Of a stretch of 34,527 nucleotides of DNA, positions 13,570-34,527 are shown piece after piece. Under the pieces are notes generated by a model. The model did not search any database, was not told the DNA's origin, and saw only the letters and a list, made by a program, of their open reading frames with translations. The DNA is from a virus. Taxonomy: Duplodnaviria; Heunggongvirae; Uroviricota; Caudoviricetes. The translations under genes were made by a program, and so were the position numbers. The DNA is taken from the IMG/VR virus record IMGVR_UViG_2667527789_000014; one strand, 5' to 3'. The first letter of the stretch is position 1. Each line of letters opens with the position of its first letter.

Positions 13570-13904
13570 TTCATCCCGTTGTGCTCAAGGCTGAAATGAT
13601 TGCCGTCCGCCCGACTGAAGCGCCCGCCCCATGTGCCGCCGATGGATTCCCAGTATTCCCCCAGCGGCCTGTAGGCGTCGGTGTCGGCCTGGTATTTGCC
13701 GTTAATGAACAGGTTGAAGTCCACCGCGAGGCGCAGCGTGTGAAGGCTGTTACGAATGCCTTTTCCGCTTTTCGCATTCAGTGCGGCCTGCTCCGGCGTG
13801 CGGTATGCCTCGCCGAAGGTCAGGCGATAGCCGTGCTCCTGTGCCCAGTGGATGAGATCGGCAATCATGACGGCAAACAGTTGTTGTTTTTCGCTCAGTT
13901 TCAT
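13566..13904 (-). CDS. endolysin, peptidase M15-like
   Basis: 112 aa. The H...D...H arrangement (NSLHTLRLAVDFNLF ... GNHFSLEH) resembles zinc-dependent M15 peptidases. Sits between the holin and spanins. Confidence 0.6.
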   Translation of the reverse strand: MKLSEKQQLFAVMIADLIHWAQEHGYRLTFGEAYRTPEQAALNAKSGKGIRNSLHTLRLAVDFNLFINGKYQADTDAYRPLGEYWESIGGTWGGRFSRADGNHFSLEHNGMK

Positions 13905-14655
13905 CAGTCATTCCTCTGTTCCGTCCCCGTAAGGCGCGCCTGTGCCACGCTGAAATAGTGGGCGTTCAGTTCAATACCCGTAAAACGGCAGCCCCGGCGA
14001 AGGGCGGCCACGCCCGTGGTGCCGGACCCCATAAACGGATCAAGGATCAGCCCTCCGGGTTCACACACGCGCACAAGCTCATCCATCAACGATTCCGGTT
14101 TACCTGTCGGGTGCTGTTTCTCCTGTGGGCGTGTGTGGTGCGTGATGCAGCCGTCGAACGGCCCTGAAGGGGATTTGCCCAGTGCGCCTTTGCTGCCCAG
14201 ACCACATATTCGCACTGGTGACGAAAATAACCGGTATGTGGTGTTCTTGAGCCCCGTCCCTTGTTCCATGCCACGATCCCCCGCCAGGTAAAACCGGCGG
14301 CCTGGAATGCGTCCGTCAGCGCGGGCAACTGCCGCCAGTCGGTGAAGACCAGGGCGTAACCACCGGGTCGTACCGTGCGCCATGCCTGTGTCATCCACAG
14401 ATGCGTCCAGTATTCCCATGAACGGGCGTCCATGTTCTCGCCTTCGAAGCCTTCAAAGCGGTGAAGATCTTCATCGTTGATGTATTTGGCGTGGCTGCCC
14501 TGGCATGTCCGCCCCGCCTTGTGTGTGGCACCTGAACTGTATGGCGGGTCTGTGATGAGCGCGTCCACACTGTTTTCCGGCAGCATCCGCAGAACGTCAT
14601 GCGCCTGCGCGTGATACAGGCTCAGGGAAGGCGAAATGTAAGGCTTATGGGTCAT
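13904..14655 (-). pseudogene. DNA N6-adenine/N4-cytosine methyltransferase (beta-class), interrupted by a frameshift
   Basis: Motif IV DPPY is in the frame of ORF 14086-14655. Motif I (DPFMGSGTT) and HPTGKPE are in a different frame, ORF 13904-14419, on the same strand. The two frames overlap over 14086-14419. The junction is probably near the GGG run at 14196-14198. Confidence 0.6.
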
Positions 14656-21138: not shown

Positions 21139-21283
21139 CGTGGCCTCTTTTACGTGAAAATCTGAAGAACTCCGGTGAGTGTCGGGATTTTTACAGCGGG
21201 GGGCTACTGGCTGAATTCGGCTGTCTTCGGATAACGCGGGATAGCCGAACACAGCCGAAATTTTCTGCCTGAATGCGGGCCGG
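21139..21283. promoter_or_regulatory. divergent late promoter region between scaffold and terminase genes, with dyad-symmetry element
   Basis: TTCGGCTGT at 21216-21224 and its reverse complement ACAGCCGAA at 21251-21259 flank 26 bp. The TGT...ACA ends are reminiscent of Ogr/Delta-type activator sites, though the spacing differs from the TGT-N12-ACA I recall. Confidence 0.35.
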
Positions 21284-23110
21284 ATGCGCCGCCATAATGG
21301 GCGCATGGCTAAATATTCTGACGAAATCAAAGAGGCGGCGCGATCGCTTTACCTGAAGCGGTGGCACCCCCGCGATATTGCGGCGGAACTCGGTATTCCG
21401 CCGCGCACGGTTTACCACTGGTGTGATGTGGGGCAGTGGGCTACCCTGCTGCCCGCTGAATCCGTTGAGGACGTGATCGCCCGGCGTATTGATGTGCTGA
21501 CTGGACGGGAGGGCAAGACAGAGTGTGAACTTGCCGAACTGCGTGAACTTATCGCGCAGCACGTGAAGATCATCGCCCAGAAAAACAAACACGCTGAAAG
21601 GATGGCGGAAATTGCCGCCCTGCGTCCGGCAGGGCATGAGGACGGCGTGGCTGCGGGGACCTGCGGCGGGGGAGAAGGGAAAAAGCGGCGCTACCGGAAA
21701 AACGACGTTTCCGGACTGACTGCTGAAATGCTGGATGAATGGGCGCGTAAAAATCTTTATGCCTACCAGCTGCACTGCCGCGAGAACCGGCACCGTGAGC
21801 GCCGTTTCATCCTCAAGAGCCGCCAGATCGGCATGACCTGGTATTTTGCATGGGAGGCGTTCGAAGATGCGGTGGTGACCGGTGATAACCAGATTTTCTT
21901 TTCTGCGTCACGGGTACAGGCGGAAATCTTCCGTGAATATATTATTAACTTCGCCCTGCAGTTCGGGATCACGCTCACGGGTAAGCATATCCGTCTGAGC
22001 AATGGTGCAATGCTGCGTTTCCTGCCCACCAATGCCAGTACCGCCCAGGGATTTAACGGCCACCTTTACGGCGATGAGGTGTTCTGGATCCCAAAATTCA
22101 CGCGACTGCATGAAGTGGCCTCGGCAATGGCGACCCACGACAAATACCGCACGACGTATTTTTCCACACCCAGCGCCAAAACCCACCAGGCTTATCTGGT
22201 CTGGAATGGTGACGACTGGCGCGGGGATGACCCGGCGCGTCGTGCTGTTGAGTTTCCGAAAGAAAGCGCGATGCGTGTGGGCTGTGAATGCCCTGACGGG
22301 ATCTGGCGCTACATTATCCGGCTGGAAGAGGCGGTGGCGGGTGGCCTGTCTGCTCGGGTTGATATTGAACGTATCAGGAACCGCTACAATCCGACCACTT
22401 ACGCGATGCTGTACGGCTGCGAGTTTGTTGACAGCAAGGATGCGGTATTTAAGTTCTCCGAACTGGTCAGGTGCGAGGTGGAGATGGAGACGTGGGGTGA
22501 CTACGATCCCACGGCGGCACGTCCGTTCGGCAATCGTGAGGTGTGGGCGGGCTTTGACCCGTCAAGGTCCGGGGATAATTCCACGTTTGTAATTGTGGCT
22601 CCGCCTGTCCATGAGGGCGAGCGGTTCCGTGTGCTCGCCGTCTGGCAGTGGCAGGGATTTAACTTCACCTGGCAGGCCGATCAGATCCGCGAACTGATGC
22701 AGCGTTTTAACATTACCTATATCGGCATAGATATCACCGGTATCGGGAAAGGGGTGTTTGATATCGTCAGTCGCTTTGCGCCACGTGAGGCTAACGCCAT
22801 TCTTTACAGCGTGGAGAGCAAAAACCGCCTGGTGATGAAAATGATAGACGTGGTGGCCCATAAGCGTATCGAGTGGGCGAAAGACGCCATTGATGAGGCC
22901 AGCCGTGAACGCACGGAGATCCCCGCGTCGTTCATGTCCATACGCCGCACCACCACAAAAAGCGGTAACGCGCTGACGTTCGTGGCGGAACGGTCGGATG
23001 TTACGGGGCATGCGGATGTGTTTTTTGCCATTTCGCACGCCGTGATTAATGAGCCTGTAGATTATGACTATGAACGCCCGTCCACATGGGCCTTCGGGAA
23101 AGCCGCATGA
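21284..23110 (+). CDS. terminase ATPase (large) subunit (P2 gpP-like)
   Basis: 608 aa with an N-terminal helix-turn-helix-like segment and a large ATPase/nuclease body. Divergent from the scaffold gene. Stop overlaps the portal start (ATGA). Alternative start at 21305. Confidence 0.75.
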   Translation: MRRHNGRMAKYSDEIKEAARSLYLKRWHPRDIAAELGIPPRTVYHWCDVGQWATLLPAESVEDVIARRIDVLTGREGKTECELAELRELIAQHVKIIAQKNKHAERMAEIAALRPAGHEDGVAAGTCGGGEGKKRRYRKNDVSGLTAEMLDEWARKNLYAYQLHCRENRHRERRFILKSRQIGMTWYFAWEAFEDAVVTGDNQIFFSASRVQAEIFREYIINFALQFGITLTGKHIRLSNGAMLRFLPTNASTAQGFNGHLYGDEVFWIPKFTRLHEVASAMATHDKYRTTYFSTPSAKTHQAYLVWNGDDWRGDDPARRAVEFPKESAMRVGCECPDGIWRYIIRLEEAVAGGLSARVDIERIRNRYNPTTYAMLYGCEFVDSKDAVFKFSELVRCEVEMETWGDYDPTAARPFGNREVWAGFDPSRSGDNSTFVIVAPPVHEGERFRVLAVWQWQGFNFTWQADQIRELMQRFNITYIGIDITGIGKGVFDIVSRFAPREANAILYSVESKNRLVMKMIDVVAHKRIEWAKDAIDEASRERTEIPASFMSIRRTTTKSGNALTFVAERSDVTGHADVFFAISHAVINEPVDYDYERPSTWAFGKAA

Positions 23111-24159
23111 GCAAGAAACGCAGAAACAAAACGTCACGCGTGACGAAAAAAGCATTCACGCCCGCACGTGGCAGCACAATCACGTTTGGTCAGCCGGAAC
23201 CGGTGCTGACCACCGGCACGGACTACCATAACATCTGGTATGACAACGAACACAACCACTGGCAGCTGCCGATTAACCGCCTGGCACTGGCGCAGCTCCC
23301 GAACCTTAACGCCCAGCACGGTGGGGTGCTGTATGCCCGCCGTAACATGGTGGCGGGGGGCTATACCGGTGGTGGCCTCACAACGGACCAGATGGAACAG
23401 GCGGTATTTGACTACCTGTTGTTCGGCGATCTCGCCCTGCTCAAGGTGCGTAACGTATTCGGCGACGTCGTGGCACTTGAGCCGCTTCCGTCGCTGTATC
23501 TCCGGCGCCGCAAAACCGGTGAGTTCGTGGTGCTTCAGGAAGGCCCCGCGCTGGTCTATACGCCGGAAGATATTATCTTTCTGCGGATGTATGATCCGCG
23601 TCAGCAAATTTACGGGCTGCCGGATTATATCGGTGGCATTCACTCGGCGCTGCTGAACAGCGAGGCCAGCCTTTTTCGTCGCCGTTACTACAACAACGGG
23701 GCGCATATGGGGTTTTTGCTGTATACGAACGACCCGGGGATCACCACGGAGATGGAGGATGAGATCCGCGAGAAGGTGGCGGAGTCTAAGGGGCTGGGAA
23801 ATTTCCGCAATCTGTACATCAACATCCCCAAAGGTTCGCCGGATGGGGTGAAAATTATTCCGATTGGTGAGGTGAGCGCCAAGGATGAATTTTCAAACAT
23901 CAAGGGGATCAGCGCCCAGGATGTGTTTACGGCACACCGCTTTCCTGCCGGTCTTGCGGGGATCATCCCCACGAACGGGGCCACCATCCCTAACCCGGAA
24001 ACGACGCGTGAAACGTACCGCAAGGATGAGGTGATACCGCTTCAGCGTAAAATCATGAACGCCGTGAACAGCGATCCCGATATACCGGAACACCTTTATC
24101 TTCGTTTTGATGTGGATGCCGGGCATGTGGCGGAAGAAAAAGCGGTGCCGGTCGGGTAA
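23107..24159 (+). CDS. portal vertex protein (P2 gpQ-like)
   Basis: Start at 23107 (MSKKRRNK) overlaps the terminase stop. Follows the terminase gene as Q follows P in P2. Confidence 0.75.
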   Translation: MSKKRRNKTSRVTKKAFTPARGSTITFGQPEPVLTTGTDYHNIWYDNEHNHWQLPINRLALAQLPNLNAQHGGVLYARRNMVAGGYTGGGLTTDQMEQAVFDYLLFGDLALLKVRNVFGDVVALEPLPSLYLRRRKTGEFVVLQEGPALVYTPEDIIFLRMYDPRQQIYGLPDYIGGIHSALLNSEASLFRRRYYNNGAHMGFLLYTNDPGITTEMEDEIREKVAESKGLGNFRNLYINIPKGSPDGVKIIPIGEVSAKDEFSNIKGISAQDVFTAHRFPAGLAGIIPTNGATIPNPETTRETYRKDEVIPLQRKIMNAVNSDPDIPEHLYLRFDVDAGHVAEEKAVPVG

Positions 24160-24196
24160 AATGTCCTCCCCGGGATACGTGTTATCGGGAGGTAAG

Positions 24197-24460
24197 ATGC
24201 GGATTTTTAAAGCCCGGTGTCCGGACTGTGGCGCACCTGCTGTCATCCGGAAGACAGACTGGAAAACCCCTGAACTTGCGGATCTGTACTGTGCATGCAG
24301 TGATGTCGAATGCGGGCATACCTTCGTCTGTACGATGACCTTTTCCCATACCCTCAGCCCCGGCGCCCGCTCCGGTCGCAATATGGTGAAGTTTCTTGTT
24401 GATGCCATGTGCCCGGAAGATCGCCGGTATGCGCTTGAACTACTGTCGCGGCGTTCCTGA
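24197..24460 (+). CDS. ogr: Ogr/Delta-family zinc-finger late gene activator
   Basis: 87 aa starting MRIFKARCPDCG, with a C-x2-C...C-x4-C arrangement (CPDCG ... CACSDVEC) like P2 Ogr. GGGAGG lies 4 nt upstream of the ATG. Confidence 0.7.
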   Translation: MRIFKARCPDCGAPAVIRKTDWKTPELADLYCACSDVECGHTFVCTMTFSHTLSPGARSGRNMVKFLVDAMCPEDRRYALELLSRRS

Positions 24461-24487
24461 CGCGCTTCGCTTGTCTGCTGCTTCGCC

Positions 24488-24510
24488 GGGGCAAAAAGAA
24501 TTTTTGCCCC
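24488..24510. terminator. bidirectional hairpin between convergent ogr and early-operon genes; also a cos-site candidate
   Basis: GGGGCAAAAA-gaa-TTTTTGCCCC is a perfect 10 bp inverted repeat between the ogr stop (24460) and the stop of the minus-strand gene at 24526. Confidence 0.5.
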
Positions 24511-24525
24511 GACTCACCAGCTCCT

Positions 24526-24852
24526 TTAACGGAATGCAGCGCCGTAGATAAACAGAATTCGCTTCATGATTTCGCTGCGCTTGCAGGCTTCGATGACTGA
24601 TTTTTCCTGCTGCTGTTCAGCCCGTTGCGCCAGTTCCTGTCGTTCCTTTTCCGTTGGCTTCCGGTAATGCGTTATCTTGTCCGTGTACCCGTCCACAACC
24701 AGCAACCCTTCCCGTACCATTTTTCCGGCGGCCTGATTAATGACGGTTCTTTTCACGCCCAGTTTTTCTACCAGTTCTGGGGCGCTGAAACGTGCGTGCG
24801 TTTCCAGGTAGCGTAAAATGATTTCCTTTCCGGTCATTCCTGGGGGCTTCAT
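24526..24852 (-). CDS. winged-helix DNA-binding protein (108 aa), last gene of the early operon
   Basis: Start at 24852 (MKPPGMTGKE) with AAGGAG 7 nt upstream and an ATGA overlap with the upstream gene. The central region looks like a helix-turn-helix. Confidence 0.5.
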   Translation of the reverse strand: MKPPGMTGKEIILRYLETHARFSAPELVEKLGVKRTVINQAAGKMVREGLLVVDGYTDKITHYRKPTEKERQELAQRAEQQQEKSVIEACKRSEIMKRILFIYGAAFR

Positions 24853-25019
24853 TTGGCGGCTCCTTCGTTGTTCCGGCGTTCCCGGAGTTCGGTCAGTGCT
24901 GCCAGTAAATTCTCCCACCATGTTTCTTCCACGACCGGGTTTTGTCGTGAAAGCAGCTGCTGCGCCGACTCAATCATTTTCGTAAGCTCTCTGTCGCTGA
25001 TCCTCCTGGTGCTGTTCAT
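24849..25019 (-). CDS. hypothetical small protein (56 aa)
   Basis: Start at 25019 (MNSTRRISDREL) with AAGGAG 6 nt upstream. Translationally coupled to the downstream gene. Confidence 0.4.
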   Translation of the reverse strand: MNSTRRISDRELTKMIESAQQLLSRQNPVVEETWWENLLAALTELRERRNNEGAAK

Positions 25020-25067
25020 GGTGCGCTCCTTTAGTTGGCTGTTTCTGGTTATGTTCATGGTCTTTGT

Positions 25068-25472
25068 TTACCTGCGTGATTGTCTGCCAGCGGCTGAATG
25101 CACATAGCGGGCAATTGCCGCTTTGCGGTTAATCGATGCCAGTGTTCTGGTCAGTTCTGCGTTGTGTTTGTGTGCCTGCTCTTCGTGGTACTGCCGCATG
25201 ATTTTTCCGGCAGGCGTGAGCGGCTCCGGCTCTCCGGGCGGACGGCGCGGACGAACGGCGACAAGCCAGCTGCGGTTGGTGCTGTCCGGTCGTCCGTTGA
25301 GTATGTCGGTGATGATGGCCGTGGTGGTGCGATCGGGACTGACGACCGTGATTTCCAGCTCATCGCCCGGTTGTGGCCCCGTGGCAATGTTGTTCAGGGT
25401 CAGTAAGGGCGTGCGCTGGCGCATCATTTCGTCAAAGCGCTGGCGCTGCATGGCACAATAAAAGCGGGTCAT
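25068..25472 (-). CDS. hypothetical protein (134 aa) downstream of the replication gene
   Basis: Overlaps the replication gene stop by 4 nt. No recognisable motif. Confidence 0.45.
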   Translation of the reverse strand: MTRFYCAMQRQRFDEMMRQRTPLLTLNNIATGPQPGDELEITVVSPDRTTTAIITDILNGRPDSTNRSWLVAVRPRRPPGEPEPLTPAGKIMRQYHEEQAHKHNAELTRTLASINRKAAIARYVHSAAGRQSRR

Positions 25473-27997
25473 TGTGGCGCCTCCGTATTCGGTGCGGGGG
25501 TGATATCAATGCGGCGGGTGCTGTCATTCCAGTACGCGGTGCGTCCGTCAGCCAGGCGCACGCGGGCACCGTGACGGACGGAAACGACGGCGCTTTCATG
25601 CAGCTGCACGCCCAGCGCATCAAGCTCGCGGGTGATTTGTGCGGTGATGTGTGGCTCAGCGGTCAGAGCGACACTCACGCGAACGCCGCCAGCGGGCGCA
25701 CTGATGCCGCCGTTTTTCACGGTTTCCGTGTCAGGTGGCGGGTTTTTCAGCTGCCTGGTGAGTTGTTTTCGCTCTGTGGGGGTCAGTGACCTTAACCATT
25801 CACCCAAATCACCTTCCGGCAGGGTAAGTCGCTGCTCCCTGCGTCCGTCCGGCTGCCTTTCTGGCGGGTCGTTTATGGTCAGATTCTGGTCAGGGGGACA
25901 GTTATTGCCACGAGTCCAAGGTGCGGCAAAGCCGCACTCAACGTCAAAACCCTCGTCCGTGCGGTCTTCGTTTTCCGGCTTACGTCTGACCAGTTTCCAG
26001 GTGTCCGGGTGGGTGCATATGGTGTAGCGCTCCCCGAGTGACGGGGCGCGGACGCCGTAAATGCGTTGCGGGAATTCGCCGTAGTCGTTGGCCTCTTCGG
26101 CAGTTTCGTATGCGGTGCGGACCAGGTACGTGTTGCGGGGAATGAGCACACCACCCTGGCGGGTGATATAGGTGGCAAAACATCCCACGTCGGCGGCGGC
26201 CAGTATGGCGTCAATGTCGTCATGGTCCAGACGCTGCGGGGCAGCCGGGTTACGGGCCATCTGCCCGGCAAGGCGGCGGAGTTCTCGCCATACCTGGCGG
26301 GGAGGGATACCGAAGAACTGGAACTGGCGGATGCGGTGAAGGGCCGCCCAGCCGATGGCGTTCTCCACGGTTTCGGCCATGGTTTTGCCTGATTCCTTAT
26401 CGACGTAAGGTTTGCCGGTTTTCGGGTCATTCCCCATGAAGGCGCTGGCGTCCAGGTTCTTACCGATATAGGTCGCGATATAGCTCGCCGGTGTGCCTTT
26501 TGCCGGGTCGATTTTTTCGCATTTAAAACGCGGGGAGATATCATCACCCAGCTCTGCGCGGTCCTCCCTGATGGCGGCGTTGCGCATGATTTCAGTGATA
26601 CGGGCTTCGTTTTCCGGGCTGGTGAATACCAGCATGTGCCAGTGCGGTGTACCGTCGTGGTGGGGCTCCACGGTGCGCACGCCGTACCAGCCCAGCCCGG
26701 CCTTGTTGATGGCCCTGCGGACGGCGGCGAAAAAGCGGTAAACCAGATAATCACTGGCATCACGTACCGTTGCTCCGCAGTATTTCGGGTTCAGGCTGCC
26801 GTCATCGTTCACGCTGTGAAAACGGGAAGGGGCTGTGACGGTGACGAAAAACGCCAGGTCGCCGCGTGCTTCGGCGACCTGCTCCATTCCCCGGACGCAG
26901 GCCATCATCTCGTTACGGCGGTTACGCGGATTAGAGAGACCTGCCCAGTAGATATCCTCAAGGCTGAACCGTTCTCCCTCTTCGTTCTCGATGTCCCAGG
27001 CCTTCAGAAAATCGCGGGTGCGCTGGCGTTTTTCGCGCCAGTCCAGTAACGCTTCATGGCTGATATATACCGATGTCTTACGTGACACCAGACCTGCGGC
27101 GCGTAACAGTTCTTCACGCCAGATGTCCCGGAGGTGTCTTAACTGACTGTTCCACCATGTCGCACAGGAAAGGCGCATGACCGCACCCGGCACCTGTTCC
27201 GGGTCGGGGGCGGTGCGGCGGTCGGGCCTGATTTCCAGCGACGGCCAGCAGGGTGGCGTGATACCCAGTTTTAACGCCATGTGTGCCAGTGGCTGGTAGG
27301 TCAGTAACCAGGTGAACAGGTCATCGTCACCCCTGCCGGTCTTTTCGATGACCTCATCACATGCGCGCTCCAGTGCGGTGGAAAACGCGGTGGCGGTCAG
27401 GGTGGCAAGGCGCTGGATTTCGTCACGGCTCAGCTGCGGCAGCATAAGCAGTTCATCCAGCCGTTCGCGCGCGGCGGTGGCCTTAAAGGCCGGGGTGGCA
27501 AAGCGATCATTCACACGGGCGATACGTTTCAGGCGGGCACGCAGCCCGTGACGAACGAAGTTATCCGCCGCGTATGCGCTGTTGTTCTTAAGCCCTTCCC
27601 GGCGTGCGCTCTCCTGTTTGCGGCTCAGGCGTGCCAGGTCACGGATGAGCGGACCGGCAAGAAACGGCGGCAGGGCGCGCAGCTCTGCCATGGCTTCAGA
27701 TACCAGCGTTGGCGGATTCTCGTGTTTGTGCCGCGCCAGTTTTTCCAGTCTGATCCGACGCTCTTCGTCGTGGTGAAGATGCGAATTAATTCGCTTGCCT
27801 TCGTCTGTGTTTGTCAGGAAGTCGACGGTCTCTTCATCCAGTCTTGCATCAATGCGAATGTCTTCGTTGATGTAGCTCTGAATGGCCTGGCGCAATGCGG
27901 TTGGTTGCGCTCTGCCGAATGTTTCAGGATCGATAACCGGTAGCGGGGCGTTCCACGGGTACGCCAGTTGTGCGTTATGGTCGCTCATGCGTCGCAC
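25469..27997 (-). CDS. rolling-circle replication initiation protein (P2 gpA family)
   Basis: 842 aa. Contains the HUH-type motif in DGTPHWHMLVF and the paired active-site tyrosines in YIATYIGKN, as in the P2 A nickase family. Confidence 0.8.
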   Translation of the reverse strand: MRRMSDHNAQLAYPWNAPLPVIDPETFGRAQPTALRQAIQSYINEDIRIDARLDEETVDFLTNTDEGKRINSHLHHDEERRIRLEKLARHKHENPPTLVSEAMAELRALPPFLAGPLIRDLARLSRKQESARREGLKNNSAYAADNFVRHGLRARLKRIARVNDRFATPAFKATAARERLDELLMLPQLSRDEIQRLATLTATAFSTALERACDEVIEKTGRGDDDLFTWLLTYQPLAHMALKLGITPPCWPSLEIRPDRRTAPDPEQVPGAVMRLSCATWWNSQLRHLRDIWREELLRAAGLVSRKTSVYISHEALLDWREKRQRTRDFLKAWDIENEEGERFSLEDIYWAGLSNPRNRRNEMMACVRGMEQVAEARGDLAFFVTVTAPSRFHSVNDDGSLNPKYCGATVRDASDYLVYRFFAAVRRAINKAGLGWYGVRTVEPHHDGTPHWHMLVFTSPENEARITEIMRNAAIREDRAELGDDISPRFKCEKIDPAKGTPASYIATYIGKNLDASAFMGNDPKTGKPYVDKESGKTMAETVENAIGWAALHRIRQFQFFGIPPRQVWRELRRLAGQMARNPAAPQRLDHDDIDAILAAADVGCFATYITRQGGVLIPRNTYLVRTAYETAEEANDYGEFPQRIYGVRAPSLGERYTICTHPDTWKLVRRKPENEDRTDEGFDVECGFAAPWTRGNNCPPDQNLTINDPPERQPDGRREQRLTLPEGDLGEWLRSLTPTERKQLTRQLKNPPPDTETVKNGGISAPAGGVRVSVALTAEPHITAQITRELDALGVQLHESAVVSVRHGARVRLADGRTAYWNDSTRRIDITPAPNTEAPQ

Positions 27998-28699: not shown

Positions 28700-29010
28700 T
28701 GTTTGGCCTCTTGTAGTAAGTTCTGAAAACTCACCAACCCGAGGTTCCAAGCTCAGGGTGGCGAGACGTACAGGGTTGGAACTACCGGCTACAAGAGATC
28801 CCGGCCCGACCGAAGTCGGCCCCGTACGCCCCGCCATAATTCTGACGCGAAAAAGACGTGGCGATACAGTACGCACAAAAAAACCGCTGGCGCGGTTGTG
28901 CGCTCTTGTAGTCGGCGGGGTTCCAATCCCGGCACCCGTTTTATGAGGTGCGGGAAAACTGTAACCCGACCAGGCGAACGCTGGCAAGCGGTTTTTTTGT
29001 GTGTGCATGT
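28700..29010. promoter_or_regulatory. structured non-coding element inside the early operon (three copies of a 22-24 nt motif in alternating orientation, plus terminator hairpins)
   Basis: Motif CTCTTGTAG...GGTTCCAA occurs at 28709-28750 and 28904-28927 and inverted at 28774-28797. No credible ORF; the 206 aa ORF in the track here is low-complexity. Confidence 0.35.
28866..28894 (-). terminator. intrinsic terminator or attenuator within the early operon
   Basis: Minus strand reads CGCACA-ACCGC-gcca-GCGGT followed by TTTTTTT. It lies upstream of the replication-proximal genes. Confidence 0.45.
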
Positions 29011-34275: not shown

Positions 34276-34527
34276 ATGCGTATTACCATAAAAAGATGGG
34301 GGAACAGTGCAGGTATGGTCATTCCCAATATCGTAATGAAAGAACTTAACTTACAGCCGGGGCAGAGCGTGGAGGCGCAAGTGAGCAACAATCAACTGAT
34401 TCTGACACCCATCTCCAGGCGCTACTCGCTTGATGAACTGCTGGCACAGTGTGACATGAACGCCGCGGAACTTAGCGAGCAGGATGTCTGGGGTAAATCC
34501 ACCCCTGCGGGTGACGAAATATGGTAA
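34276..34527 (+). CDS. chpS: MazE/ChpS-family antitoxin (83 aa)
   Basis: MRITIKRWGNSAGMVIPNIVMKELNLQPG... has the AbrB/MazE fold signature and matches E. coli ChpS as I recall it. AAGGAGG 5 nt upstream. The cognate toxin gene would lie beyond the window end. Confidence 0.75.
   Translation: MRITIKRWGNSAGMVIPNIVMKELNLQPGQSVEAQVSNNQLILTPISRRYSLDELLAQCDMNAAELSEQDVWGKSTPAGDEIW

What the first reader, a model, noticed from the sequence alone, without database searches (positions are those of the whole stretch)
24160..25472. Late activator relocated to the replication-portal interval, with three small genes in the slot that P2 uses for variable cargo
In P2 the late activator lies near the integrase end, and the interval between the replication gene and the portal gene carries variable accessory genes. 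Here an Ogr-like gene occupies that interval on the plus strand, convergent with three small early-operon genes of 134, 56 and 108 aa (the last a winged helix), separated by a perfect 10 bp palindrome. The small genes are translationally coupled and unassigned; they could be regulators, anti-defence or exclusion factors.
Basis: partly seen in the sequence, partly recalled or inferred. Interest (0 to 1): 0.45.

Follow-up and report, generated by a model that had tools for sequence, protein, structure and literature searches.

The report
Late activator beside portal, swappable neighbours
In this E. coli P2-like prophage the late-gene activator sits next to the portal gene, which is normal for the K139/ESSI-2 branch of these phages. 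It faces three small early genes (an ASCH-fold partner of the replication gene, an orphan, and a lambda Ren homologue) in a slot whose far end is swapped among relatives, so the finding is real but largely ordinary.

Summary
An 87-aa Ogr/Delta zinc-finger gene (24197-24460, +) follows the portal gene. It converges on orf108, orf56 and orf134, which end the early operon after replication gene A. An 11-bp perfect palindrome (24487-24511) lies between.

The "relocation" holds only relative to P2, 186 and P88. It is the standard, published layout of K139-type Peduoviridae. In a gpA-anchored sample, 17 of 17 loci with this portal type have Ogr beside the portal, against 0 of 48 with P2/P88-type portals.

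The trio is not one unit.
- orf134 overlaps the gpA stop codon (ATGA). It followed gpA in every orf134-carrying relative examined. Its N-terminal domain has an ASCH/DUF3850 fold, like P2 Orf91 at the same position.
- orf108 is a full-length homologue of lambda Ren (42% identity).
- orf56 is an E. coli-only orphan.

The part of the interval beyond orf134/orf56 is variable cargo: Ren is replaced by other genes in sister prophages.

The palindrome lies in a 69-74 bp element found in about 1,100 E. coli genomes. It always abuts the last late gene, at the seam between a P88-like early module and an ESSI-2/K139-like late module.

Verdict: a new member of a known kind, of low to moderate interest.

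The parts
23086..24159 (+). Portal gene (gpQ homologue), the last structural gene of the rightward terminase-portal late operon.
   Evidence: Pfam Phage_portal E 2.1e-15 and phrog_68 E 4e-120. It is 57-67% identical to ESSI-2-type portals but only about 31% identical to the P88 portal.
24157..24162 (+). TAAAAT hexamer overlapping the portal stop codon, a candidate -10 element of the activator gene's own promoter.
   Evidence: The AAAA core is invariant in all 14 aligned portal-Ogr junctions, and the full TAAAAT is present in 13 of them (all except K139). It lies about 30-35 nt before the start codon. No good -35 is present, and the consensus promoter scan did not call it. Its function is inferred.
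24197..24460 (+). Ogr/Delta-family zinc-finger protein (87 aa), the presumed late-gene activator.
   Evidence: Pfam PF04606 E 1.2e-15 and phrog_603 E 1e-28. The cysteine spacing C8-X2-C11-X22-C34-X4-C39 matches that of P2 Ogr (read from the sequences). It is 48-60% identical to K139 orf13, SI7 and ESSI-2 proteins, all encoded beside the portal gene.
24455..24528 (.). Conserved 69-74 bp junction element that contains the palindrome and abuts the stop codon of the last late gene.
   Evidence: It is 90-95% identical in about 1,100 of 5,426 E. coli genomes and in P88-type phages. In 20 loci it always sits directly after the Ogr stop or the portal stop. It is absent from non-E. coli relatives. No Rfam family reaches threshold.
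24487..24511 (.). Perfect 11-bp palindrome with a 3-nt spacer (CGGGGCAAAAA GAA TTTTTGCCCCG). It is probably the stop or 3'-end hairpin between the convergent operons.
   Evidence: (fold z-scores -3.5 and -3.6). The P88 copy carries a compensatory stem change, CATAAA/TTTATG. No T-tract follows on either strand, so it is not a canonical intrinsic terminator. Relatives have canonical terminators at this same position after Ogr.
24526..24852 (-). orf108, a homologue of lambda Ren (winged helix) and the last gene of the early operon. It is swappable cargo.
   Evidence: BLASTP against lambda Ren gives 42% identity over 99 aa, E 6e-27. phrog_142 'Ren-like exclusion protein' E 8e-29. Pfam MarR_2 scores just below cut-off. 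Its start overlaps the orf56 stop as ATGA. It is replaced by other genes in L002, L003 and L029-L032. Its GC content is 0.51, against 0.60 for gpA.
24849..25019 (-). orf56, a small protein of unknown function found only in E. coli.
   Evidence: phrog_14672 E 3e-32. There are 75 clusters, all from E. coli, with no Pfam match. An AAGGAG Shine-Dalgarno sequence precedes the 56-aa start. It is kept in sister prophages that lack orf108, with a different C-terminal end.
25068..25472 (-). orf134, with an ASCH/DUF3850-fold N-terminal domain plus a long C-terminal helix. It is translationally coupled to gpA.
25469..27997 (-). Replication gene A (rolling-circle initiator), which anchors the early-operon end.
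   Evidence: Pfam Phage_GPA E 1.9e-106 and phrog_91.
21226..21249 (.). Dyad TTCGGATAACGCGGGATAGCCGAA in the scaffold-terminase intergenic region, a candidate binding site for this type of Ogr-like activator.
   Evidence: It is the only TTCGG-N11-17-CCGAA in the window. The same dyad type sits mid-region in 29 of 31 loci with portal-adjacent Ogr and in neither of 2 P88-type loci. Binding is inferred, not shown.

Best explanation
This is the convergent junction between the late and early transcription units of a mosaic P2-like (Peduoviridae) prophage of E. coli, inserted between serS and dmsA.

**Late side.** The late module is of the ESSI-2/K139 type. In that branch the Ogr/Delta zinc-finger activator is encoded immediately after the portal gene, on the same strand. 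I infer that it is made first from its own weak promoter, whose conserved TAAAAT -10 overlaps the portal stop codon. I also infer that it is then made by read-through from the terminase-portal operon it activates, which would give positive feedback. Its likely target is the TTCGG-N14-CCGAA dyad between the divergent scaffold and terminase operons.

**Early side.** The early module is P88-like and ends with gpA-orf134-orf56-orf108.
- orf134 is translated by coupling to gpA. It is an ASCH/PUA-like nucleic-acid-binding-fold protein, the structural counterpart of P2 Orf91. It is most likely an accessory of rolling-circle replication.
- orf108 is a lambda Ren homologue. It most likely acts like Ren, letting the phage replicate in cells that carry a RexAB-type exclusion system.
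- orf56 is of unknown role.

**Seam.** The palindrome-bearing 69-74 bp element marks the end of the P88-type early module. It most likely stops or stabilises the 3' ends of the converging transcripts. It is also the fixed right-hand edge of a slot in which genes distal to orf134/orf56 are exchanged between prophages.

**Shown versus inferred.** Shown here: gene identities, folds, synteny and variability. Inferred: promoter use, DNA binding, termination, and the functions of Ren and orf134.
For: - **Activator identity:**
- **Placement is a lineage trait:** K139, SI7 and ESSI-2 share the layout. So do 16 Enterobacterales genomes. In a gpA-anchored IMG/VR sample, 17 of 17 window-type portals have Ogr beside them, against 0 of 48 P2/P88-type portals. 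P88 itself has an unannotated P2-type Ogr after gpD. The literature states the K139 layout.
- **Own promoter:** the AAAA core of a TAAAAT hexamer is invariant in all 14 aligned junctions, with the full hexamer in 13. The scan called no terminator between portal and Ogr.
- **Candidate target site:** the dyad is present in 29 of 31 loci.
- **orf134:** fold; ATGA coupling; always directly after gpA in the loci examined. P2 Orf91 matches DUF3850 and ASCH and also overlaps the A stop codon.
- **orf108 is Ren-like:**. Lambda ren likewise directly follows the replication genes O and P. Two-hybrid contacts between Ren and the Rex proteins have been reported.
- **Variable distal cargo:**
- **Junction element:**. 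Relatives have canonical terminators at the same spot.
- **Mosaic origin:**
Against: - The hairpin has no U-tract on either strand and is not called by the terminator scan. Termination is therefore argued only from position.
- The candidate Ogr promoter lacks a recognisable -35.
- orf134 shows no sequence-profile similarity to P2 Orf91 and no Pfam ASCH hit. Its link to replication is positional only. In other P2-like loci DUF3850 genes lie upstream of A rather than after it.
- Most of the loci that show orf134 after gpA were retrieved using orf134 itself as the query, so that sample is biased. P88 (gpA 53% identical) has ParM there instead.
- Ren's molecular mechanism is not known even in lambda.
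- The orf108 model was of low confidence (pLDDT 59).
- The packaging site (cos) of this prophage was not located.
Confidence: 0.65

Rival explanations
1. The three small genes form one accessory cassette (anti-defence, exclusion or immunity cargo), equivalent to P2 tin/old. They would have been acquired together and would be dispensable for the phage.
For: They occupy the same interval as P2 tin/old. The interval is variable among relatives and holds obvious accessory genes elsewhere: an HTH-M78 peptidase plus a PIN protein, an Ead/Ea22-like protein, SSB, and an IS3 insertion. orf108 belongs to the PHROG named 'Ren-like exclusion protein'. orf56 and orf108 have lower GC than gpA. The trio occurs together in two different head lineages.
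Against: orf134 stays with gpA when orf56 and orf108 are absent (L033-L040, L044-L047, L050). orf56 stays when orf108 is replaced (L002, L003, L029-L032). The genes are co-oriented with gpA and coupled to it (ATGA), unlike tin/old, which have their own leftward transcript. No convincing PADLOC hit was found. P2 has a fold-equivalent gene (Orf91) in the constant part after A.
Confidence: 0.2
2. The palindrome-bearing element is not a transcription stop. It would instead be a protein-binding or packaging-related site (a cos-associated or terminase/IHF site), or a dedicated recombination site for module exchange.
For: No U-tract is present. The element is very strongly conserved (90-100%) over 69-74 bp, while the genes on both sides differ. 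Exchange junctions fall exactly at its two edges. In P2 the cos site lies in this interval, and no cos was found anywhere else in the window.
Against: It is shared by prophages whose terminases and portals are only 31-38% identical, which argues against a terminase recognition site. It is absent from ESSI-2-type relatives that share this window's packaging genes. P88 has about 420 bp of additional non-coding DNA next to it that could hold cos. The compensatory stem change fits a hairpin as well as it fits a palindromic protein site. Relatives carry plain terminators at the same position.
Confidence: 0.2
3. The Ogr-like gene was moved here recently in this particular prophage by rearrangement, which would change the timing of late gene expression relative to its ancestors.
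For: P2, 186 and P88 all have the activator after gene D, next to attP. This prophage's early region is P88-like.
Against: Every relative with this portal/terminase type has the gene in the same place, across Vibrio, Aeromonas, Cronobacter, Salmonella, Yersinia and many other genera. The activator subfamily, its position and the promoter dyad all co-vary with the head module. What moved is therefore a whole late module, not the gene.
Confidence: 0.03

Closest known systems
Vibrio phage K139 orf13 and its layout (also Smhb1, phiO18P, ESSI-2, SI7)
   Same: An Ogr/Delta zinc-finger gene lies directly downstream of the portal gene on the same strand. It converges on the end of the rep operon, with a hairpin between. 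The proteins are 48-60% identical.
   Different: K139 has an extra small gene (orf14) between portal and orf13. Its rep-side neighbours are different: a DUF262 protein and a small gene with a LexA box. Here the rep side is P88-like.
P2 Ogr / 186 B / P4 Delta late activators
   Same: Same Pfam family and the same C-X2-C-X22-C-X4-C zinc-finger spacing. The presumed role is activation of divergent late promoters.
   Different: Only about 32% identity over 37 residues to P2 Ogr. The gene position differs: after D next to attP in P2, 186 and P88. The scaffold-terminase region carries a TTCGG-N14-CCGAA dyad rather than the P2-type TGT-N12-ACA.
Lambda Ren
   Same: Full-length homology at 42% identity, E 6e-27. 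It is a small winged-helix protein. It is encoded in the early operon downstream of the replication genes, as lambda ren is after O and P.
   Different: The host phage is P2-like with a rolling-circle initiator rather than lambda O/P. RefSeq labels the gene only as 'MarR family'. The Rex-resistance phenotype is untested. In this lineage it is present only in a subset.
P2 Orf91 (DUF3850/ASCH)
   Same: The gene start overlaps the stop codon of gene A. It has an ASCH/PUA-like fold. Its function is unknown.
   Different: No detectable sequence or profile similarity. orf134 adds a 47-residue C-terminal helix. Its family is restricted to a few E. coli prophage lineages.
P2 'tin-old' accessory region between A and cos/Q
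   Same: The same interval, and it is variable among relatives.
   Different: P2's cargo is transcribed leftward from its own promoter and encodes known exclusion proteins. Here the genes continue the early operon, the proximal one is constant, and no defence model matches.

Membership tests
Ogr/Delta late-activator family | Match to the Ogr_Delta zinc-finger profile above the curated threshold | tested here: met
   PF04606 E 1.2e-15, 57.6 bits against a cut-off of 26.3, covering the full 47-position profile. phrog_603 'transcriptional regulator' E 1e-28.
Ogr/Delta late-activator family | Four zinc-binding cysteines spaced C-X2-C-X22-C-X4-C, as in P2 Ogr | tested here: met
   C8, C11, C34 and C39 in the window protein correspond to C4, C7, C30 and C35 in P2 Ogr, read from the translations.
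Ogr/Delta late-activator family | P2-type activator site (TGT-N12-ACA) upstream of the late promoters | tested here: not met
   None of the six TGT-N12-ACA matches in the window lies in the scaffold-terminase region, and their number is at chance level. That region instead has a TTCGG-N14-CCGAA dyad, conserved in 29 of 31 related loci.
Ogr/Delta late-activator family | Activates late promoters through RNA polymerase | not testable with these tools
   Needs reporter or in vitro transcription assays.
Lambda Ren family | Full-length sequence homology to lambda Ren | tested here: met
   42% identity over 99 of 108 residues, E 6e-27. phrog_142 E 8e-29 over profile positions 11-111 of 116.
Lambda Ren family | Encoded in the early operon just downstream of the replication genes | tested here: met
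   Lambda has O-P-ren. Here the order is gpA-orf134-orf56-orf108 on one strand with overlapping stop and start codons.
Lambda Ren family | Confers resistance to RexAB exclusion | not testable with these tools
   This is a phenotype known from lambda genetics (my own knowledge; only indirect mentions). It needs plating assays.
ASCH / PUA-like superfamily (including DUF3850) | ASCH-type beta-barrel fold | tested here: met
ASCH / PUA-like superfamily (including DUF3850) | Match to the ASCH or DUF3850 sequence profiles | tested here: not met
   No Pfam hit for orf134. hhalign against P2 Orf91 gives probability 0.2%. P2 Orf91 itself matches both profiles.
ASCH / PUA-like superfamily (including DUF3850) | Conserved basic/acidic pocket residues of catalytic ASCH proteins | tested here: inconclusive
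   The invariant residues of the family do not visibly reproduce the Lys/Glu/Arg motif that I recall for ASCH enzymes. No structure-based residue mapping was done.
Rho-independent (intrinsic) terminator | Stable G+C-containing hairpin | tested here: met
   An 11-bp perfect stem. The 76-nt context folds at -25.8 and -33.7 kcal/mol, z-scores -3.5 and -3.6.
Rho-independent (intrinsic) terminator | U-rich tract immediately 3' of the hairpin | tested here: not met
   The terminator scan does not call it. The flanking sequence is GACTCACC on the plus strand and GCGAAGCA on the minus strand.
P2-type variable accessory ('moron') slot between gene A and the portal gene | Gene content differs between otherwise closely related phages | tested here: met
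   Sister prophages with 97-100% identical Ogr, portal and gpA carry different genes in place of orf108. The interval measures 363-3713 bp.
P2-type variable accessory ('moron') slot between gene A and the portal gene | Cargo is an independent transcription unit with a defence or exclusion function | tested here: not met
   The genes are co-oriented with the early operon and overlap it. No promoter-like site was called in the scanned region apart from one inside the portal gene. PADLOC gave no hits for orf134 or orf56, and only weak winged-helix hits for orf108.

The most novel reading that the evidence does not exclude
orf134 would define a very narrow, previously unrecognised ASCH-fold family that is the functional equivalent of P2 Orf91: a nucleic-acid-binding partner made in fixed proportion with the HUH rolling-circle initiator gpA. 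Next to it, a Ren homologue would show that P2-like phages have borrowed lambda's counter-measure against RexAB-type abortive infection. The 69-bp hairpin element would be the fixed 'docking edge' at which such counter-defence genes are exchanged among roughly a fifth of E. coli genomes.
Probability: 0.2. Interest if true: 0.45.

Novelty: new member of a known kind. Interest (0 to 1): 0.22.

Why it matters
The finding mainly corrects annotation and expectation.
- The activator's position is a lineage marker of K139/ESSI-2-type late modules, not an oddity.
- The gene labelled 'MarR family regulator' is a Ren homologue.
- One 'hypothetical protein' has an ASCH fold, like P2 Orf91 at the same position.

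If Ren-like proteins do counter RexAB-type systems, their presence in P2-like prophages widens the known reach of that counter-defence. It would also give a second, simpler system for working out what Ren does. The recurring ASCH-fold gene beside gpA offers a testable lead on an unexplained accessory of P2-type replication. The conserved junction element is a handy landmark for finding exchangeable cargo in E. coli P2-like prophages.

Tried and rejected
- **Cos site.** I searched the window for the P2 cohesive-end sequence with up to 3 mismatches and found nothing. Low-stringency BLAST of the P2 cos region and of the P88 non-coding region next to the portal also found nothing meaningful. BLAST of the Ogr-rep gaps of relatives gave only one short 27-nt chance-level match. 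The packaging site remains unlocated.
- **orf134 versus P2 Orf91.** A profile comparison showed no similarity. The link between them is by fold and position only.
- **Defence models.** PADLOC gave nothing convincing. NCBIfam gave nothing above cut-off.
- **orf134 in phage genomes.** tblastn against the deposited phage genomes found no match, although a PHROG family exists.
- **orf108 structure.** The prediction had pLDDT 58.8, too poor for a fold search, so none was run. The PDB sequence search gave only a weak LrpA winged-helix hit.
- **Rfam.** No family matched the hairpin. The only hit was a sub-threshold gyrA RNA match, probably chance.
- **Literature.** The K139 genome paper (PMC135448) and the Thomason & Court ren paper (PMC9529316) are not held.
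- **Errors of my own, corrected.** I first recalled that 186 gene B lies near cos, but the record shows it after D next to attP. I first guessed that P88 gp53 was its Ogr, but it is not. The real P2-type Ogr in P88 is unannotated, starting near 34476.
Full report
**What is there.**

The window is a P2-like prophage of E. coli. A 99.7% identical copy lies between serS and dmsA in strain 2013C-3033, and 12 of 5,426 complete E. coli genomes carry this lineage. The gene order around the finding is as follows:
- scaffold gene (-)
- large terminase 21284-23110 (+)
- portal 23086-24159 (+)
- an 87-aa Ogr/Delta zinc-finger gene 24197-24460 (+)
- a 65-bp gap
- orf108 24526-24852 (-)
- orf56 24849-25019 (-)
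- orf134 25068-25472 (-)
- replication gene A 25469-27997 (-)

The gap holds a perfect 11-bp palindrome with a 3-nt spacer at 24487-24511. The gpA/orf134 and orf56/orf108 junctions are ATGA overlaps preceded by Shine-Dalgarno sequences. A 48-nt gap separates orf134 from the 56-aa start, which has an AAGGAG ribosome-binding site.

**The activator's position.**

In P2 and 186 the activator (ogr, B) lies after gene D next to attP. P88 also has an unannotated P2-type Ogr there. The window has only one Ogr-like gene, the one beside the portal.

This is not a local relocation.
- The protein's nearest relatives (48-60% identity) are K139 orf13, Kappa kp19, phiO18P, SI7/SW3/SW5, ESSI-2 and a Yersinia phage.
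- In K139, SI7 and ESSI-2 the gene lies immediately after the portal gene and converges on the rep operon.
- The same is true in 16 genomes from Pectobacterium to Providencia.
- I took a sample of IMG/VR contigs anchored on gpA rather than on Ogr. All 17 loci with this window's portal type have Ogr beside the portal. None of the 48 with P2- or P88-type portals do.
- A 2021 paper says so explicitly for K139 and Smhb1 and contrasts it with P2 (PMC8537503).

The placement is thus a known lineage trait of the K139/ESSI-2-type late module.

**How the activator is probably expressed and where it acts (inferred).**

An alignment of 14 portal-Ogr junctions shows the AAAA core of a TAAAAT hexamer invariant in all 14, about 30-35 nt before the start codon. 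The full hexamer is present in 13, all except K139. In the window it overlaps the portal stop codon at 24157-24162. There is no good -35, and no terminator is called between portal and Ogr. A weak promoter of its own, plus read-through from the terminase-portal operon, is therefore the simplest reading.

The scaffold-terminase intergenic region lacks the P2-type TGT-N12-ACA site. It does carry TTCGGATAACGCGGGATAGCCGAA at 21226-21249, the only such dyad in the window. The same dyad type sits at the middle of that region in 29 of 31 loci with portal-adjacent Ogr. Near-variants occur in the other two, and it is absent from the two P88-type loci. Activator subfamily, gene position and promoter dyad thus co-vary, which supports the late-activator role without proving it.

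**The three small genes are not one unit.**

*orf134.* It has no Pfam, NCBIfam or PADLOC match. Its family is tiny: 35 clusters, all from E. coli. Only three real relatives exist among 1.84 billion representative proteins.
- Its AlphaFold model is confident (pLDDT 86). It shows a beta domain (residues 3-75) plus a 47-residue helix.
- P2 Orf91, whose start also overlaps the stop codon of gene A, matches both DUF3850 and ASCH profiles.
- The two proteins share fold and position but no detectable sequence similarity.
- orf134 directly follows gpA in all 22 IMG/VR loci found with it and in the E. coli loci, whatever the head type.
- That sample is biased by its query. P88 itself has ParM after A.

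*orf56.* This is an E. coli-only orphan, with 75 clusters and no domain match.

*orf108.* This is a full-length homologue of lambda Ren: 42% identity, E 6e-27, and phrog_142. In lambda, ren likewise follows the replication genes in the early operon. RefSeq calls orf108 only 'MarR family'.

**Variability of the slot.**

Sister prophages with 97-100% identical Ogr, portal, gpA and orf134 keep orf56 but replace orf108. The replacements are a 54-aa membrane protein plus a 187-205-aa protein, a 72-aa protein, or a 90-aa protein.

Other orf134-bearing lineages lack orf56 and orf108. Their cargo includes the following:
- an Ead/Ea22-like protein
- an HTH-M78 peptidase with a PIN protein
- SSB
- a DUF4760 protein
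- a ClpX-zinc-finger-like protein
- IS3 insertions

The interval beyond orf134 ranges from 363 to 3713 bp. orf56 and orf108 also have lower GC (0.54 and 0.51) than orf134 and gpA (0.60).

**The palindrome and the module seam.**

The palindrome lies in a 69-74 bp element (24455-24528). The element is 90-95% identical in about 1,100 E. coli genomes and in P88-type phages.
- In 20 loci it always abuts the stop codon of the last late gene. That gene is Ogr in this lineage and the portal in the P88 type.
- The genes on its other side differ from locus to locus.
- It is absent from ESSI-2-type relatives in other genera.
- P88's copy has a compensatory change in the stem.
- ESSI-2-type relatives have canonical hairpin-plus-T-tract terminators at exactly this position after Ogr.
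- The window's hairpin has no T-tract and is not called by the scan.

The early region is P88-like: gpA is 79-89% identical to prophages with P88-type heads. The late region is ESSI-2/K139-like. The element therefore marks the seam of a mosaic. I read it as the 3' end of the P88-type early module, acting as a stop or 3'-end hairpin between the convergent units. A protein-binding or packaging role is the main rival.

**What remains open.**

- The cos site was not found.
- Ren's mechanism is unknown even in lambda. Two-hybrid contacts with the Rex proteins and a likely role in replication have been reported.
- The role of orf134 rests on its fold and on its coupling to gpA.
- No defence model matches any of the three genes.

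**Verdict.**

It is partly wrong: the activator was not relocated here, the genes are not unassigned, and they are not a unit. This is a new member of known kinds, with modest added value from three results: the Ren assignment, the ASCH-fold parallel with P2 Orf91, and the conserved junction element.

Noticed in passing
window 21226-21249 (scaffold-terminase intergenic region, 21139-21304): The dyad TTCGGATAACGCGGGATAGCCGAA lies here. The same TTCG-N15/16-CGAA dyad sits mid-way in this intergenic region in 29 of 31 loci with portal-adjacent Ogr, from Vibrio K139 to Enterobacterales. It is absent from the P88-type loci. It is a candidate operator for this Ogr subfamily, distinct from P2's TGT-N12-ACA.
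   Followed up: partly
window 28754-28841 (-) and 28877-28951 (-): Rfam hits above gathering score to the C4 antisense RNA (83 bits) and the isrK Hfq-binding RNA (69 bits). They lie in the early region upstream of gpA, near genes that RefSeq calls 'derepression protein' and 'ash family'. This suggests a P1/P7-style RNA-controlled antirepressor switch in this P2-like prophage.
   Followed up: no
loci L058-L130 (gpA-anchored IMG/VR contigs); L007 29046-29061; L010 5523-5538; window: none: Most P2-like loci carry a LexA-box-like CTGT-N8-ACAG a few hundred bp downstream of gpA, as at phage 186 p95-tum. In ESSI-2/K139-type relatives it precedes a small minus-strand gene in the same rep-Ogr interval. 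The window has no such box anywhere in its 34.5 kb. This lineage apparently does not use an SOS-controlled gene in this slot.
   Followed up: partly
L005 (phage P88, NC_026014.1), starting at 34476 (+): An unannotated P2-type Ogr gene (MFRCPLCGASARIRTS..., 42% identical to P2 Ogr, E 5e-11) lies just after gpD. The deposited annotation shows no gene there.
   Followed up: yes
window about 585-1925 (NZ_CP027323.1 644690-646028): RefSeq annotates three Hok/Gef-family toxin genes in a row. They lie between serS and the tail-fibre end of the prophage.
   Followed up: no
whole window: No recognisable cos site was found. There is no match to the P2 cohesive end (up to 3 mismatches), to the P2 or P88 cos-side non-coding DNA, or to the Ogr-rep gaps of ESSI-2-type relatives. 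The roughly 300-bp non-coding gap that those relatives have after Ogr is replaced here by 65 bp. Whether the prophage can still package its DNA is unknown.
   Followed up: partly
L038 and L042 (IMG/VR), interval between orf134/orf108 and the late genes: IS3-family insertion sequences (100-aa and 272-aa transposase ORFs) sit inside the same slot in two different prophage lineages. L038 and L039 also carry an HTH-M78 peptidase (381 aa) next to a PIN-domain protein (183 aa).
   Followed up: partly
window 13903-14655 (NZ_CP027323.1 658008-658760): RefSeq annotates a DNA methyltransferase gene embedded between the holin and the M15 peptidase (endolysin) genes of the lysis cassette.
   Followed up: no
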